64,000 nucleotides of DNA from an uncultured Eubacteriales bacterium. GTDB taxonomy: Bacteria; Bacillota; Clostridia; Peptostreptococcales; Anaerovoracaceae. Positions within the stretch are counted from its first letter, which is position 1. Each line of letters opens with the position of its first letter. Below are positions 20,755 to 24,270 of the stretch, piece by piece. The stretch covers positions 141,956-205,955 of the forward strand of contig CACYYD010000002.1 of NCBI GenBank assembly GCA_902778585.1, read 5' to 3'. Below the pieces are notes generated by a model. The model was not told where the DNA came from, ran no database searches, and was given only the letters and a program-made list of their open reading frames with translations. The position numbers were made by a program, and so were the translations under genes.

Positions 20755-23700
20755 CTACAGATCGAAGATGCTGATCTGCGCCGACTCAGGCAGTCCTTCG
20801 AACAGACCGTGCTTTTTAAGGTCCTCTATGTTTGTGCCCGTGAGCCTTGTTCTTGAACGAACGTCGTCGAGAGTGCTGAAAGGCTTCTCCGCATAAGCTG
20901 CCGTAAGCGACTCAGCAGCCGTATCTCCTATTCCGTTTACGGCATTGAACGGAAGCATTATCTTTCCGTCGACGACCGAGAACCTGCAGGCCTCAGCGAC
21001 TCCGAGGACAGGTTCCGCAAAGCCGTAGCCTCTTGAGAACGCTTCATACATTACCTCGTATACGGTCAGCTGTTCCTTCTGTTTCGCTGTGGCAGCATTG
21101 CCGAGCTTTTCTATCTCATCCATCCTGGCTTCGACAGCAGGTATGCCCGACATTATGATATCGGCATCGAAGTTGTCGACCTTCGAAGTGAACCATGCAG
21201 CATAGAATGCTTCAGGATAATAGACCTTGAACCAGGCCATTCTTATGGACATCATTACGTAAGCCGCCGCATGTGCTCTCGGGAACATGTACTCCAGAGT
21301 CTCGCAGGACCAGATATACCAGTCAGGCACGCCGTGATCCTTCATCATCTGGAGCTGTTCTTCGCTCAGCACCCTGTTCTTACGCACTATCTCCATTATC
21401 TTGAAGGCATCGCCGTTAGGCAGACCCTTGCTGATAAGGAAGTTCATGATATCGTCTCGGCAGGATATTACCTCATCTATGGTGGCCGTACCGTTTCTCA
21501 GGAGTTCCTGCGCGTTGCCTGTCCAAACGGCAGTTCCGTGTGAGAATCCCGACATCTTGATAAGCGCGGATACCGTAGTCGGATGGATGTCATCAAGCAT
21601 CTGACGTGTGAAGTTTGTTCCGAATTCAGGGATGGCGTAAGTACCATGCACGAATCTGTAGTTCTCGTTCTTTATGTTGAGCGCATCAAGCGATGTGAAG
21701 ATGCTGATGGTCTTTTTGTCATCGAGCGGGATGTTCATAGGATCCACGCCTGTCATGACCTGAAGATGCCTTATGAGCTGAGGCACATCATGTCCCAGTA
21801 TATCCAGTTTGAGAAGGTTCTCATCGATCTTGTGATAATCGAAGTGCGTCGTTATCACGTCGGTGTCCCTCTTGTTTGCCGGCTTCTGTATAGGGCAAAA
21901 CTCATATATCTCGTGGTCGTCAGGCACTACGATGATGCCGCCCGGGTGCTGGCCGGTCGTACGCTTTACGCCCGTGCATCCCTTCACAAGATAATCTATG
22001 TCGTATTTGTTTGCGCTTATGTGGTTTTCTTCGATGTAGTGCTTTACATATCCGAAAGCCGTCTTGTCAGCGATGGTCGCTACTGTGCCCGCCTTATATA
22101 CATTCTTTTCGCCGAAGATCTCGCCTACGTAGCGGTGAGCCACAGGCTGGTATTCGCCGGCGAAGTTAAGGTCTATATCAGGTTCCTTATCTCCCTTGAA
22201 ACCGAGGAATGTGGCGAACGGGATATTGAGGCCTTCCTTACGCATGCGGGCGCCGCACGCCGGACATTTCTTTTCCGGCATGTCGTATCCGACATCATAT
22301 TTGCCCGGCTCGTCAGACCATTCAAAGTGCTTGCACTCCGGGCAAATATAGTGCGGCGCCAAAGGATTTACTTCGGTTATCCCCGCCATCGTGGCAGCAA
22401 ATGAAGAACCTACGGATCCTCTGGAACCTACAAGATATCCGTCCCTGTTTGATTTCTGTACAAGCATCTGAGCCGCTATGTACATGACCGCGTAGCCGTT
22501 TCCGATGATAGAACTCAGCTCGGTCTCGAGTCTCTCCTCTATCTCAGGCGGCAGAGGGTCGCCGTATATCGAATGCGCCTTCTCATAGCAGCTGTTTCTG
22601 AGCTGTTCCTCTGCGCCTTCGATCTTAGGCGGGAATTTTCCCTTAGGTACAGGAAGAACTTCCTCTACCATATCCGCGATCTTATTCGTATTTGTGATTA
22701 CTATCTCTTCTGCCCTGTCGCCCAGATACTCGAATTCCTTCATCATCTCGTCGGTCGTTCTGAGATAGAGCGAATCCGAAGGAGTATCCCTGAATCCGAT
22801 ACCCGACATGATGATGTTTCTGTATATCGATGCCTCCTGTGAAGGATAGTGGGAGTCGGTGGTCGCCACCGTTATCTTTCCGAGCCTGTCTCCGCATGCG
22901 ATTATCCTGAGGTTGTTGCGGATGAGATCATTCTCATCCCTTGCCGTCCCGTCTTCTATCATGAAGCGGTTGTTTCCGAGCGGCTGTATCTCAAGATAAT
23001 CATAGTAAGATGCGATCCTGTCGAGTTCGTCATCGTCGGCACCTCGTACTATCGCCTGGTAAAGCTCGCCCGCCTCGCAGGCAGAACCGATTATCAGCCC
23101 TTCCCTGTGAGCCTCAAGCACGGAACGCGGTATCCTCGGCCTCTTGTAGAAATAATCAATATGCGAAAGGCTGACCAGCTTGTAGATGTTCTTAAGGCCG
23201 GCCTGGTTTTTCGCCAGGATTATTATGTGATATGTACGGTTCTTCTTGATGTCGATGCTTCCGTCTTCAGCCCAGGCGTCCTCGTCAGGATAAAGATAGC
23301 CCTCGACTCCGTAGATGATCTTTATCGGGCGTCCGGCCTTGGCCTGCTTGCCCGCTTCCTTTGCTGCATCAGGGAAAGCCTGCACGACACCGTGGTCGGT
23401 TATCGCGACAGCCGGCTGGCCCCAGTACGCAGCCTTCTTTACTATATCTTTGACCTCATTGAAGCCGTCATTGTCGCTCATCTTTGTGTGGCAGTGAAGC
23501 TCTACCCTGCGTCCGTTCGGATAGGTATCTTCCTTGAGTCTCTTCTCTACCTTCTTGAGCGCGAGGCACATCATGAGGTTCTCGTGTTCATATGTGTCGT
23601 ATTCTATGCTGCCGCGGGCTCTTACCATATCGCCCTCCGACAGATGCTCCTGGATCTCCTTGAGCTTGTCTTCAGAGATGAATGTCTTCATCCCGAAGGT

Positions 23701-24270
23701 CCTTACTTCTGAAGCAATGAGGATGGTGATCAGCTGGCGTCCGCTCTTGATAGGCATGGAATCGATCTTGAATACCTCGCCCTCGATGACCGGCTTTTCC
23801 TTGCTGCCCACAAGTCCCGCAAGCTCGCCGTAGGATACGGGCTCATCGCTGAAGTCGCTTCCCATGAGGACCAGTTCTCCGGCCCTGTTGGTGAAGGCAG
23901 GCTTGTCCTTTTTGCTCTGCCTGCCGCTCCAGCCGCCTCCGCCGCCACTGTTTCCGTTATATGAAGCACCGGAAGCCGTGCTGTCATCATAGTCTGAGTG
24001 CTGAGGCAGCCTGACTCCCGTATATGTGTAGTTGACACGTACTCTTCCGACAGATGCTATCTTTGCCGCGATCCTCTTCTTCATGAGATTCTCGGTCTTT
24101 TTAGGCATCACAAAATTGAGCTTGGCGTCAATGCTGAGCGCCACGCTCGATCCGCCGCCCATGCGGGATACAGACACATTGGTTATCTCAATATCTATAT
24201 CCCGGGCGTCCCTGCCGCTTGCTTCCTTAAGCTCTTCGGCAGTAAGAATGTCTTCTGAGAGCTTTATCAT
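20755..24270 (-). CDS. polC: PolC-type DNA polymerase III alpha subunit, without the inserted 3'-5' exonuclease domain
   Basis: 1171 aa. PHP start [14 protein letters not shown], PolC zinc module HYICPECKH...CPACG, and [15 protein letters not shown]. Canonical synteny downstream of rseP/ispG. The PHP halves are joined by about 22 aa (residues ~324-346) where PolC normally carries a roughly 190-aa DEDDh domain. Confidence 0.9.
   Translation of the reverse strand: [1171 protein letters not shown]

What the first reader, a model, noticed from the sequence alone, without database searches (positions are those of the whole stretch)
20755..24270. The syntenic PolC replicase lacks its proofreading exonuclease domain
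**Identity as PolC.** The 1171-aa ORF is collinear with PolC-type Pol III alpha.
- It has an N-terminal region plus OB fold, and the PHP domain starts at [14 protein letters not shown] (residue ~257).
- It carries the PolC-specific zinc module HYICPECKH...CPACG and the palm motif [15 protein letters not shown].
- It sits at the canonical position downstream of dxr-rseP and upstream of the rimP-nusA block.

**What is missing.** Canonical PolC (about 1430-1450 aa) has a roughly 190-aa DEDDh exonuclease inserted into the PHP domain. The insertion lies between the IYGxE strand and the H..L.kN..GLKNLyKLVS strand.
- Here those two strands are joined by about 22 residues: [50 protein letters not shown] (nt ~23233-23301).
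- I find no DxE, HNAxFD or HxAxxD exonuclease motifs anywhere in the protein.
- The frame is continuous, so this is not an obvious pseudogene.

**Possible consequences.**
- All nine PHP metal-ligand positions appear occupied (HCH, D of SDND, TDH, GVE, YH, SAC, DSH). Proofreading by the PHP site, as described for some DnaE1 enzymes, or by a trans-acting exonuclease, is therefore conceivable.
- The polC ATG abuts the ispG stop (TAGATG) with no visible SD, which suggests translational coupling.
Basis: partly seen in the sequence, partly recalled or inferred. Interest (0 to 1): 0.75.

Follow-up and report, generated by a model that had tools for sequence, protein, structure and literature searches.

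The report
Natural PolC replicase without exonuclease domain

Summary
ORF 20755-24270 (minus strand, 1171 aa) is a PolC-type Pol III alpha: it scores 1388 bits on NCBIfam NF001688 (cutoff 873). The roughly 185-aa DEDDh exonuclease normally inserted in the PHP domain is replaced by a 22-residue loop (residues 326-347).

It is not an artefact or a pseudogene.
- The identical protein is called on at least 7 contigs in public assemblies.
- All 80 best genome loci share the architecture, including the complete Mogibacterium pumilum chromosome.
- dN/dS is about 0.05.
- The model superposes on the engineered Geobacillus PolC-deltaExo crystal structure (TM 0.94).

All nine PHP metal ligands (HHDHEHCDH), the Zn module, the palm aspartates and a C-terminal QISIF clamp motif are conserved.

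The class is already known. Timinskas et al. 2014 found that 6% of PolCs lack Exo, all but one in Clostridia and Negativicutes, classes where PolC pairs with DnaE1. This protein is a new member.

The most likely mechanism is proofreading by PolC's own PHP metal centre, which is inferred and not shown. A C. thermocellum mutant in the PHP cysteine ligand is a roughly 30-fold mutator.

Additional points:
- Exo loss looks recurrent (about 14-19 events among 144 sequences).
- This subclade also lost an N-terminal subdomain.

The presence of DnaE1 or a stand-alone DnaQ elsewhere in the genome could not be tested.

The parts
20755..24270 (-). polC: PolC-type DNA polymerase III alpha subunit, 1171 aa, natural Exo-less form
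   Evidence: ORF. NCBIfam NF001688 1388 bits and TIGR01405 1297 bits, both above cutoff. Pfam domains PHP, DNA_pol3_alpha, finger and HHH_6. Foldseek best match 3f2b_A, TM 0.94.
24001..24270 (-). N-terminal subdomain (residues 1-90, 'NI'). The second N-terminal subdomain found in the sister group is absent.
   Evidence: Alignment A1 against P0115, P0116, P0118 and P0120 shows a missing block of about 75-100 aa. The model has a beta-alpha fold over residues 11-83, pLDDT about 80.
23845..24000 (-). Low-complexity Gly/Ser/Lys-rich linker (residues 91-142)
   Evidence: pLDDT below 50 for residues 86-119. Lowest conservation in the protein, 0.48.
23521..23844 (-). OB domain, N-terminal to PHP (the PolC-specific arrangement), residues 143-250
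   Evidence: Aligns to 3f2b_A from residue 143. Beta strands at residues 161-241 in the model.
23296..23505 (-). PHP domain, first half (residues 256-325), carrying ligands H259, H261, D268, H293 and E323
   Evidence: Pfam PHP 257-425. Ligands invariant in 42 of 42 and 80 of 80 sequences.
23230..23295 (-). Junction loop (residues 326-347, [22 protein letters not shown]) that takes the place of the roughly 185-aa DEDDh exonuclease domain
   Evidence: Alignment to 9qpc_A: chain residues about 449-632 have no counterpart. Junction length is 50-51 in all 81 orthologues. Loop conservation 0.77, pLDDT 81-90, dN/dS 0.02-0.07.
22831..23229 (-). PHP domain, second half (residues 348-480), carrying ligands H348, C398, D472 and H474
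   Evidence: C398 is equivalent to G. kaustophilus C670 and C. thermocellum C669.
22252..22353 (-). PolC Zn module, residues 640-673 (C643, C646, C669, C672)
   Evidence: Motifs located. The four Cys are invariant in A1.
22162..22182 (-). Palm catalytic motif PDIDLNF (D698, D700). The third acidic residue, D823, is in LDILGH.
   Evidence: Identical in 81 of 81 orthologues. Invariant in A1.
20788..20985 (-). Tandem helix-hairpin-helix domain (residues 1096-1161)
   Evidence: Pfam HHH_6, 2.7e-09.
20764..20778 (-). C-terminal beta-clamp-binding-type motif QISIF (residues 1165-1169)
   Evidence: The QxS/T-I/L-F tail is conserved across orthologues. Q1165 is invariant and F1169 is at least 90% conserved. 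The published table has the same position and type of motif (QIELF, QLSLF).
24271..25350 (-). ispG, immediately upstream; its TAG stop abuts the polC ATG
   Evidence: NCBIfam NF001540, 434 bits. Sequence ...GACTAGATGATA....

Best explanation
This is the organism's functional PolC replicase in a naturally Exo-less form that is fixed across the family Anaerovoracaceae (Mogibacterium and relatives).

The DnaQ-like DEDDh domain that canonical PolC carries as an insertion in its PHP domain was excised in an ancestor. A conserved 22-residue loop remains and closes the PHP barrel.

The enzyme keeps everything needed for processive synthesis: OB domain, PHP domain, Zn module, palm aspartates, fingers, HhH domain and a C-terminal clamp motif.

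3'-5' proofreading is most likely carried out by the trinuclear metal centre of its own PHP domain, since all nine ligands are intact. This is the mechanism used by Mycobacterium tuberculosis DnaE1 and Thermus DnaE. The PHP domain of a co-resident DnaE1 could provide further editing capacity.

Clostridial PolC + DnaE1 systems normally carry three apparently active proofreaders, so the DnaQ-type one is redundant and has been lost repeatedly.

Shown here: the architecture, its conservation, purifying selection, intact ligands and the fold. Inferred: that the PHP site is catalytically active as an exonuclease, and that a DnaE1 is present in this genome.
For: **PolC identity and clean excision of Exo.**

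**A real, selected gene.**
- The identical protein is called on at least 7 public contigs.
- 80 of 80 genome loci are Exo-less, including M. pumilum ATCC 700696 (complete chromosome), M. timidum ATCC 33093, M. kristiansenii and Baileyella intestinalis.
- 114 of the 120 best database hits are 1135-1176 aa with no PF00929.
- dN/dS is about 0.05 for the whole gene, the PHP domain and the junction.

**Fold.** AF2 model pLDDT 82; Foldseek best match is the engineered Gka PolC-deltaNdeltaExo 3f2b, TM 0.94, rmsd 2.9 A.

**Polymerase competence without Exo.** Sau-PolC-deltaNdeltaExo has kpol 330 per second (PMC3656037).

**PHP site.**
- HHDHEHCDH is invariant in 80 of 80 orthologues. It equals the 'active' motif used in PMC12926913.
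- 23 of 24 Exo-less cluster representatives keep a perfect site, against 72 of 114 Exo-containing ones (Fisher p = 0.001; not corrected for phylogeny).
- C669Y at the equivalent Cys ligand of C. thermocellum PolC gives a roughly 30-fold mutator (bioRxiv 10.1101/2021.07.30.454558).
- PHP exonuclease activity is established for Mtb DnaE1 (PMC5636811).

**Published precedent.** The same architecture with 9/9 PHP ligands, a C-terminal QxxLF motif and a DnaE1 partner occurs in Acidaminococcus fermentans and A. intestini. 6% of PolCs are Exo-less (PMC3919608).
Against: - No biochemical demonstration exists, to my knowledge or in the papers found, that any PolC PHP domain has 3'-5' exonuclease activity.
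- The C. thermocellum mutator could act indirectly, for example through structural destabilisation, and that PolC still has its Exo domain.
- 63% of Exo-containing PolCs also keep a perfect PHP site, so conservation of the site does not prove that it compensates for the loss.
- The rest of the genome is not available. DnaE1, a second polC or a stand-alone DnaQ-like exonuclease could not be looked for beyond about 84 kb.
- One Exo-less representative (P0240) lacks the PHP ligands too. A PolC-like protein can therefore exist with neither site.
Confidence: 0.6

Rival explanations
1. Proofreading in trans by a separately encoded DnaQ-like (DEDDh) exonuclease. After the internal domain was lost, a stand-alone epsilon-like protein docks on PolC or on the clamp, as epsilon does on E. 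coli DnaE.
For: - Bacterial proteomes carry on average more than 3 stand-alone DnaQ homologues (PMC12926913).
- Trans-complementation of DnaE3 by the PolC Exo domain is reported for B. subtilis in the same paper.
- The junction loop is conserved and acidic (PDEDA..EDGSID) and could be a docking surface, which is speculation.
Against: - No DEDDh-like ORF in the 64-kb window, in the 10 kb beyond each end, or in 687 kb of related polC loci.
- The 2014 and 2026 surveys do not report a dedicated DnaQ subunit for Clostridia.
- The intact PHP site offers a simpler answer.
Confidence: 0.15
2. PolC here does not proofread and is not the main replicase. DnaE1, with its own active PHP, replicates the bulk of the chromosome, and Exo-less PolC has a restricted or auxiliary role.
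For: Timinskas et al. raise exactly this possibility. Clostridial DnaE1 has every property of a self-sufficient replicase, some Clostridia have only DnaE1, and all Exo-less PolCs are in clostridial genomes.
Against: - Very strong purifying selection on the whole PolC, including the PHP ligands and the clamp motif.
- Conserved housekeeping synteny.
- The PolC PHP-Cys mutation is a roughly 30-fold mutator in C. thermocellum, which implies that PolC synthesises a large share of the DNA there.
Confidence: 0.2
3. Artefact or decay: an assembly collapse across the Exo-coding segment, a pseudogene, or a divergent non-essential paralogue.
For: None found. The only open point is that the rest of the genome cannot be inspected for a second polC.
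Against: - Identical protein on at least 7 contigs in public assemblies.
- The same 50-51-residue junction in 81 of 81 orthologues, including complete genomes of cultured strains.
- dN/dS about 0.05.
- All catalytic motifs invariant.
- Above the equivalog cutoffs.
Confidence: 0.02

Closest known systems
Exo-less PolC of Clostridia and Negativicutes (Timinskas, Balvociute, Timinskas & Venclovas 2014, NAR; e.g. Acidaminococcus fermentans YP_003399045.1, 1191 aa)
   Same: - Architecture NTD+OB+PHP+Pol3+HhH with no Exo insertion.
- PHP motif HHDHEHCDH, 9 of 9.
- C-terminal QxxLF-type clamp motif.
- An anaerobic Firmicutes host belonging to the PolC + DnaE1 type.
   Different: - A different lineage: Anaerovoracaceae (Clostridia), not Negativicutes.
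- On the NJ tree the window's clade is a separate Exo-less clade, and loop sequences differ between Exo-less lineages, which suggests independent losses.
- This subclade also lacks the second N-terminal subdomain.
- The DnaE1 partner was not verified for this genome.
Canonical PolC (B. subtilis, S. aureus, G. kaustophilus; PDB 9qpc full length)
   Same: Same family by equivalog HMMs. It shares the OB-PHP-Pol3-HhH order, the Zn module, the palm motifs and the synteny downstream of dxr-rseP-ispG.
   Different: - Lacks the roughly 185-aa DEDDh exonuclease (9qpc residues about 449-632).
- Lacks about 85 aa of the N-terminal domain.
- 1171 aa against about 1440 aa.
- Canonical PolC of Bacilli pairs with DnaE3 and often has an inactive PHP.
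Engineered PolC-deltaNdeltaExo constructs (Gka 3F2B/3F2C; Sau-PolC-deltaNdeltaExo)
   Same: The Exo domain is removed at essentially the same boundaries. The protein aligns in one stretch (residues 143-1169) with TM 0.94. The constructs are active polymerases.
   Different: - Those are laboratory deletions with an artificial GS linker, and they lack the whole NTD.
- This is a natural, selected protein with a conserved native loop and a retained first N-terminal subdomain.
PHP-proofreading DnaE1 (M. tuberculosis DnaE1, Thermus DnaE)
   Same: A C-family replicase with no DEDDh domain in cis. It has a complete nine-residue trinuclear metal site in the PHP domain.
   Different: - A different C-family branch: DnaE1, not PolC, at about 20% identity.
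- Exonuclease activity has been demonstrated for those enzymes and not for any PolC PHP.

Membership tests
PolC-type DNA polymerase III alpha (NCBIfam NF001688 / TIGR01405) | Scores above the curated equivalog cutoffs | tested here: met
   NF001688 1388.4 bits (cutoff 873); TIGR01405 1297.2 bits (cutoff 1043.45)
PolC-type DNA polymerase III alpha (NCBIfam NF001688 / TIGR01405) | OB domain N-terminal to PHP, followed by the Pol3 core and (HhH)2 | tested here: met
   Single-stretch alignment of residues 143-1169 to 3f2b_A. Pfam domain order. Foldseek TM 0.94.
PolC-type DNA polymerase III alpha (NCBIfam NF001688 / TIGR01405) | Four-Cys Zn module and palm catalytic acidic residues | tested here: met
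   C643, C646, C669, C672, D698, D700 and D823 are invariant in A1 and in 81 orthologues
PolC-type DNA polymerase III alpha (NCBIfam NF001688 / TIGR01405) | DEDDh (DnaQ-like) exonuclease inserted in the PHP domain. This is a hallmark, but it is absent in about 6% of members. | tested here: not met
   No PF00929 at E<=1. Gap against 9qpc 449-632. Exo HMM -1.3 bits. No motifs.
PolC-type DNA polymerase III alpha (NCBIfam NF001688 / TIGR01405) | Two-subdomain N-terminal domain (NI + NII) | tested here: not met
   Only the first subdomain is present. A block of about 75-100 aa retained by P0115, P0116, P0118 and P0120 is absent here. The NTD is known to be poorly conserved.
PolC-type DNA polymerase III alpha (NCBIfam NF001688 / TIGR01405) | C-terminal beta-clamp-binding motif QxxLF | tested here: met
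   QISIF at residues 1165-1169, conserved in orthologues. Binding itself was not tested.
Exo-less PolC subgroup (Timinskas et al. 2014) | Architecture NTD+OB+PHP+Pol3+HhH in a Clostridia or Negativicutes genome | tested here: met
   Architecture. Relatives are Mogibacterium, Anaerovoracaceae, Baileyella and Emergencia genomes.
Exo-less PolC subgroup (Timinskas et al. 2014) | Intact nine-residue PHP metal site (HHDHEH[C/H]DH) | tested here: met
   H259, H261, D268, H293, E323, H348, C398, D472, H474
Exo-less PolC subgroup (Timinskas et al. 2014) | Co-occurrence with DnaE1 (not DnaE3) in the same genome | not testable with these tools
   Only about 84 kb of the genome is visible, with no dnaE in it.
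PHP-type proofreading polymerases (Mtb DnaE1 / Thermus DnaE) | Demonstrated Zn/Mn-dependent 3'-5' exonuclease activity of the PHP domain | not testable with these tools
   Requires enzyme assays. Only the ligand set is shown here.
DnaQ / RNase_T (DEDDh) exonucleases | Exo I-III motifs (DxE, NxxxD, HxxxxD) and the RNase_T fold anywhere in the ORF or the window | tested here: not met

The most novel reading that the evidence does not exclude
The DnaQ-type exonuclease of PolC has been lost many times independently within Clostridia-type PolCs. I count about 14-19 state changes among 144 sequences, with different junction loops in each lineage. Almost every loss retains a perfect PHP trinuclear site. 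That would mean the PHP centre, and not the DEDDh domain, is the primary and sufficient proofreader of PolC in PolC + DnaE1 replisomes. The Mogibacterium-type enzyme, which lacks Exo and also the second N-terminal subdomain (1171 aa), would then be among the shortest full-length PolCs seen here and an ideal test system.
Probability: 0.4. Interest if true: 0.5.

Novelty: new member of a known kind. Interest (0 to 1): 0.3.

Why it matters
Which nuclease proofreads in PolC + DnaE1 replisomes is still open. The authors of the 2014 and 2026 surveys both say that experiments are lacking. Natural Exo-less PolCs remove the confounding DEDDh domain, so they are the cleanest material for testing whether a PolC PHP domain is a real proofreader.

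Cultured strains with this enzyme exist, for example M. pumilum ATCC 700696 and M. timidum ATCC 33093. The question is therefore directly testable.

Practical side notes:
- PolC-targeting antibiotics and annotation pipelines assume the canonical domain set.
- Length-based quality filters could wrongly flag these genes as truncated.

As a discovery in itself the finding is modest, because the variant class was described in 2014.

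Tried and rejected
1. **Assembly artefact or pseudogene: rejected**.
2. **Displaced exonuclease gene.** I looked for a split or separately encoded Exo domain. Pfam scans of about 50 window ORFs (NCBIfam for ten of them) found nothing. A purpose-built Exo HMM found nothing in all six-frame ORFs of the window or of 82 related loci.
3. **Extending beyond the window.** I looked up the terminal proteins on longer public contigs. The extra 10 kb on each side holds only housekeeping genes (ileS, rlmN, plsX, rnc, smc, ftsY on one side; hydrogenase, peptidases and kup on the other). 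There is no dnaE or dnaQ.
4. **Polymerase inventory from the literature.** I tried to read the polymerase and proofreader inventory of Mogibacterium diversum from the supplements of PMC12926913. Only the genome-list row is held, because the file is cut.
5. **DnaE1 of this clade by protein search.** I considered this and dropped it. No close seed sequence is available, and the tool lists only the best 120 hits, which would not reach this taxon.
6. **Taxon names for other Exo-less clusters.** I obtained only 'Clostridia bacterium', 'Clostridiales bacterium' or 'Firmicutes bacterium'.
7. **RNA features.** Rfam and tRNA scans of the window returned nothing.
8. **Self-correction.** I first indexed the seventh PHP ligand as A397. 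The correct residue is C398.

Full report
**1. The observation**

The window carries a 1171-codon ORF at 20755-24270 on the minus strand, with ATG start and TAG stop.
- VELHCH at residues 256-261
- the Zn module HYICPECKH...CPACG at 640-673
- [10 protein letters not shown] at 769-778
- the junction peptide at residues 318-367 (nt 23170-23319)

Pfam finds PHP (257-425), DNA_pol3_alpha, the finger domain and HHH_6. It finds no RNase_T/DEDDh domain even at E<=1. The two NCBIfam PolC equivalog models are passed comfortably: NF001688 scores 1388 bits against a cutoff of 873, and TIGR01405 scores 1297 against 1043. The match is split in two, and the second stretch (residues 339-1170) maps to model positions 607-1445.

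Against the full-length solved PolC 9qpc (1474 aa), the protein aligns to chain residues about 259-448 and resumes at 633. About 185 residues, beginning at the 'TYVVF..' Exo I strand, have no counterpart. By contrast it aligns in one uninterrupted stretch (143-1169) with 3F2B, the Geobacillus kaustophilus PolC crystal construct from which the N-terminal and exonuclease domains were removed by engineering.

In 114 Exo-containing PolC representatives the interval between the ligands equivalent to E323 and H348 is mostly 200-230 residues. Here it is 26. An HMM built from 107 of those inserts gives the window protein -1.3 bits. It finds nothing significant in any of the 741 six-frame ORFs of the window; the best is E 0.16.

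**2. Context**

The gene order on the minus strand is pyrH-like kinase, frr, uppS, cdsA, dxr, rseP, ispG, polC, then buk, arsR, a small HMA-domain gene (called on identical public contigs), a P-type metal ATPase, PBP1A, and only then rimP-nusA-infB-(rbfA)-DHH-truB-ribF-(rpsO)-pnp.

The ispG TAG stop does directly abut the polC ATG. In orthologous loci, however, there is usually a 5-15 nt spacer, so the tight abutment is not a conserved feature.

No DnaQ-like or DnaE gene occurs in the 64 kb window or in the 10 kb beyond either end on longer public contigs.

**3. Real gene, not an artefact**

- The identical 1171-aa protein is called on at least 7 contigs in public metagenome assemblies. Some of those contigs are in the 0.2-1 Mb class.
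- A database search returned 114 proteins of 1135-1176 aa (99% down to 57% identity), none with PF00929. It also returned a sister group of 1254-1296 aa that lacks it too.
- The genome-collection scan returned 80 loci, and every one has the same 50-51-residue junction. They include the complete chromosome of Mogibacterium pumilum ATCC 700696, M. timidum ATCC 33093, M. kristiansenii, Baileyella intestinalis, Candidatus Crickella, Emergencia, and many rumen or gut 'Mogibacterium sp.'/Anaerovoracaceae MAGs.
- Pairwise dN/dS against seven orthologues is about 0.05 for the whole gene, the PHP domain and the junction. dS is saturated, so the ratio is approximate, but purifying selection is plainly strong.
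- An AlphaFold2 model has mean pLDDT 82.3, with 84-95 over most of the PHP domain and 81-90 over the junction loop. It superposes on 3F2B/3F2C with target-normalised TM 0.94 and rmsd 2.9 A.

**4. What is conserved**

- The nine PHP metal ligands are H259, H261, D268, H293, E323, H348, C398, D472 and H474. They spell HHDHEHCDH, exactly the 'active' signature used in the 2026 survey. They are invariant in 80 of 80 orthologues and in the 42-sequence alignment.
- Also invariant are the four Zn-module cysteines, the palm acidic residues D698, D700 and D823, and Q1165 of a C-terminal QISIF motif. That motif matches in type and position the clamp-binding motifs tabulated for PolC.
- The replacement loop ([23 protein letters not shown]) is itself well conserved, at 0.77 mean column conservation against 0.77 for the whole protein.

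**5. Comparison with what is known**

Timinskas et al. 2014 (PMC3919608) reported that 6% of PolC sequences lack the Exo insertion. With one exception, an extra copy in Thermotogae, all of them occur in Clostridia and Negativicutes. In those classes PolC is paired with DnaE1 and not DnaE3. Within PolC + DnaE1 systems 16% lack the internal exonuclease.

Their supplementary table lists, for example, Acidaminococcus fermentans and A. intestini PolC. These are 1191 and 1210 aa, with architecture NTD+OB+PHP+Pol3+HhH, PHP motif HHDHEHCDH 9/9, a C-terminal QIELF motif and system 'PC+E1'. That is the same feature set as the window protein.

The 2026 survey (PMC12926913) adds that Clostridia usually have three apparently active proofreaders: PHP in PolC, PHP in DnaE1, and DnaQ in PolC.

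The window protein is thus a new member of a described variant class, in a family (Anaerovoracaceae) that I did not find named in the texts I could read.

**6. Mechanism**

Shown by others:
- Engineered Exo deletions leave a fast polymerase. Sau-PolC-deltaNdeltaExo has kpol 330 per second (PMC3656037).
- PHP domains with the nine-ligand trinuclear centre are bona fide proofreading exonucleases in M. tuberculosis DnaE1 and Thermus (PMC5636811; cited).
[quoted passage not shown] Shown here:
- The ligand set is intact and invariant in this clade.
- Among 50%-identity cluster representatives, 23 of 24 Exo-less PolCs keep a perfect site, against 72 of 114 Exo-containing ones. Fisher p = 0.001, not corrected for phylogeny.

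Inferred:
- The PHP centre of this PolC does the editing.
- Redundancy of proofreaders in clostridial replisomes allowed the DnaQ-type domain to be lost.

I put about 0.6 on this overall. The structural and evolutionary part is near-certain. The PHP-proofreading part is roughly 0.6.

Rivals:
- A trans-acting stand-alone DnaQ homologue (0.15).
- A non-proofreading or auxiliary PolC, with DnaE1 as the main replicase (0.2). This idea was floated by Timinskas et al..
- Artefact or pseudogene (0.02).

**7. Additional results**

(a) Recurrent loss.
- In a neighbour-joining tree of 144 PolCs (867 core columns), the window's protein falls in a monophyletic Exo-less clade of nine sequences.
- The other Exo-less representatives are scattered. 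Fitch parsimony needs 16 state changes, and 14-19 across 30 bootstrap replicates.
- Independently of the tree, the junction loops of the different Exo-less lineages differ in length (13-63 residues between the E and H ligands) and are not alignable.
- Several lineages have an Exo-containing PolC as nearest relative. For P0129 the figures are 66% against 59%, and for P0230 65% against 49%.
- Several of these clusters have multiple full-length members on different contigs.
- This supports repeated independent excision, but the NJ analysis is crude.

(b) A second domain loss.
- The window's subclade (1135-1176 aa) also lacks a block of about 75-100 residues in the N-terminal domain. The sister Exo-less group (1254-1296 aa) retains it.
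- One N-terminal subdomain (residues 1-90) remains, followed by a disordered Gly/Ser/Lys-rich linker.

(c) An outlier. One Exo-less representative, P0240, lacks the PHP ligands too.

**8. Limits**

The rest of the genome is not available. I could not verify a DnaE1 partner, the absence of a second polC, or candidate stand-alone DEDDh proteins. No enzymology exists for any natural Exo-less PolC in the literature I could search.

**9. Verdict**

The phenomenon has been in the literature since 2014, and the gene is routinely annotated as 'PolC-type DNA polymerase III' in related MAGs.
- Novelty: new member of a known kind.
- Interest: 0.3. The value lies mainly in giving a clean natural system for testing PHP proofreading in PolC.

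Noticed in passing
window 23845-24270 (-), polC residues 1-142: Besides Exo, this PolC subclade lacks a block of about 75-100 aa, the second N-terminal subdomain, that the sister Exo-less group (P0115, P0116, P0118, P0120; 1254-1296 aa) retains. What remains is one small alpha/beta subdomain plus a disordered Gly/Ser/Lys-rich linker ([16 protein letters not shown]).
   Followed up: partly
window 13973-20743 (-): Butyrate kinase, an ArsR-family regulator, a small HMA-domain gene, a heavy-metal P-type ATPase and a 958-aa PBP1A lie between polC and the rimP-nusA-infB block. The classical polC-rimP adjacency is therefore interrupted by about 6.9 kb.
   Followed up: partly
window 24268-24273 (-): The ispG TAG stop directly abuts the polC ATG with no clear Shine-Dalgarno sequence. 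In orthologous loci the spacer is usually 5-15 nt, so the abutment is specific to this genome.
   Followed up: yes
protein P0240 (representative library; no locus): A 1178-aa PolC-like representative lacks both the Exo insertion and the PHP metal ligands (HRSLENSDQ in place of HHDHEHCDH). It is a PolC relative with neither recognisable proofreader.
   Followed up: no
proteins P0121-P0270 (PolC representatives): Exo-less PolCs are scattered over the PolC tree (about 14-19 state changes among 144 sequences) and have non-homologous junction loops of 13-63 residues. This suggests many independent excisions of the exonuclease domain.
   Followed up: partly
window 1-64000: No Rfam family reaches its gathering score and no tRNA gene is found in the whole 64 kb. 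This is despite thrS, the ilv/leu operon and infC-rpmI-rplT, which often carry T-box or ribosomal-protein leaders in Firmicutes.
   Followed up: no
window 35559-36959 (-): A DUF815 AAA-type ATPase gene (466 aa) sits inside the branched-chain amino-acid biosynthesis cluster, between the isopropylmalate dehydrogenase gene and the PALP (threonine dehydratase-like) gene.
   Followed up: no
window 7783-8769 (-): A DHH/DHHA1 (NrnA-like) phosphoesterase gene is embedded in the infB-rbfA-truB-ribF operon. It is a 3'-5' exonuclease family acting on short RNA, not a DEDDh proofreader.
   Followed up: no
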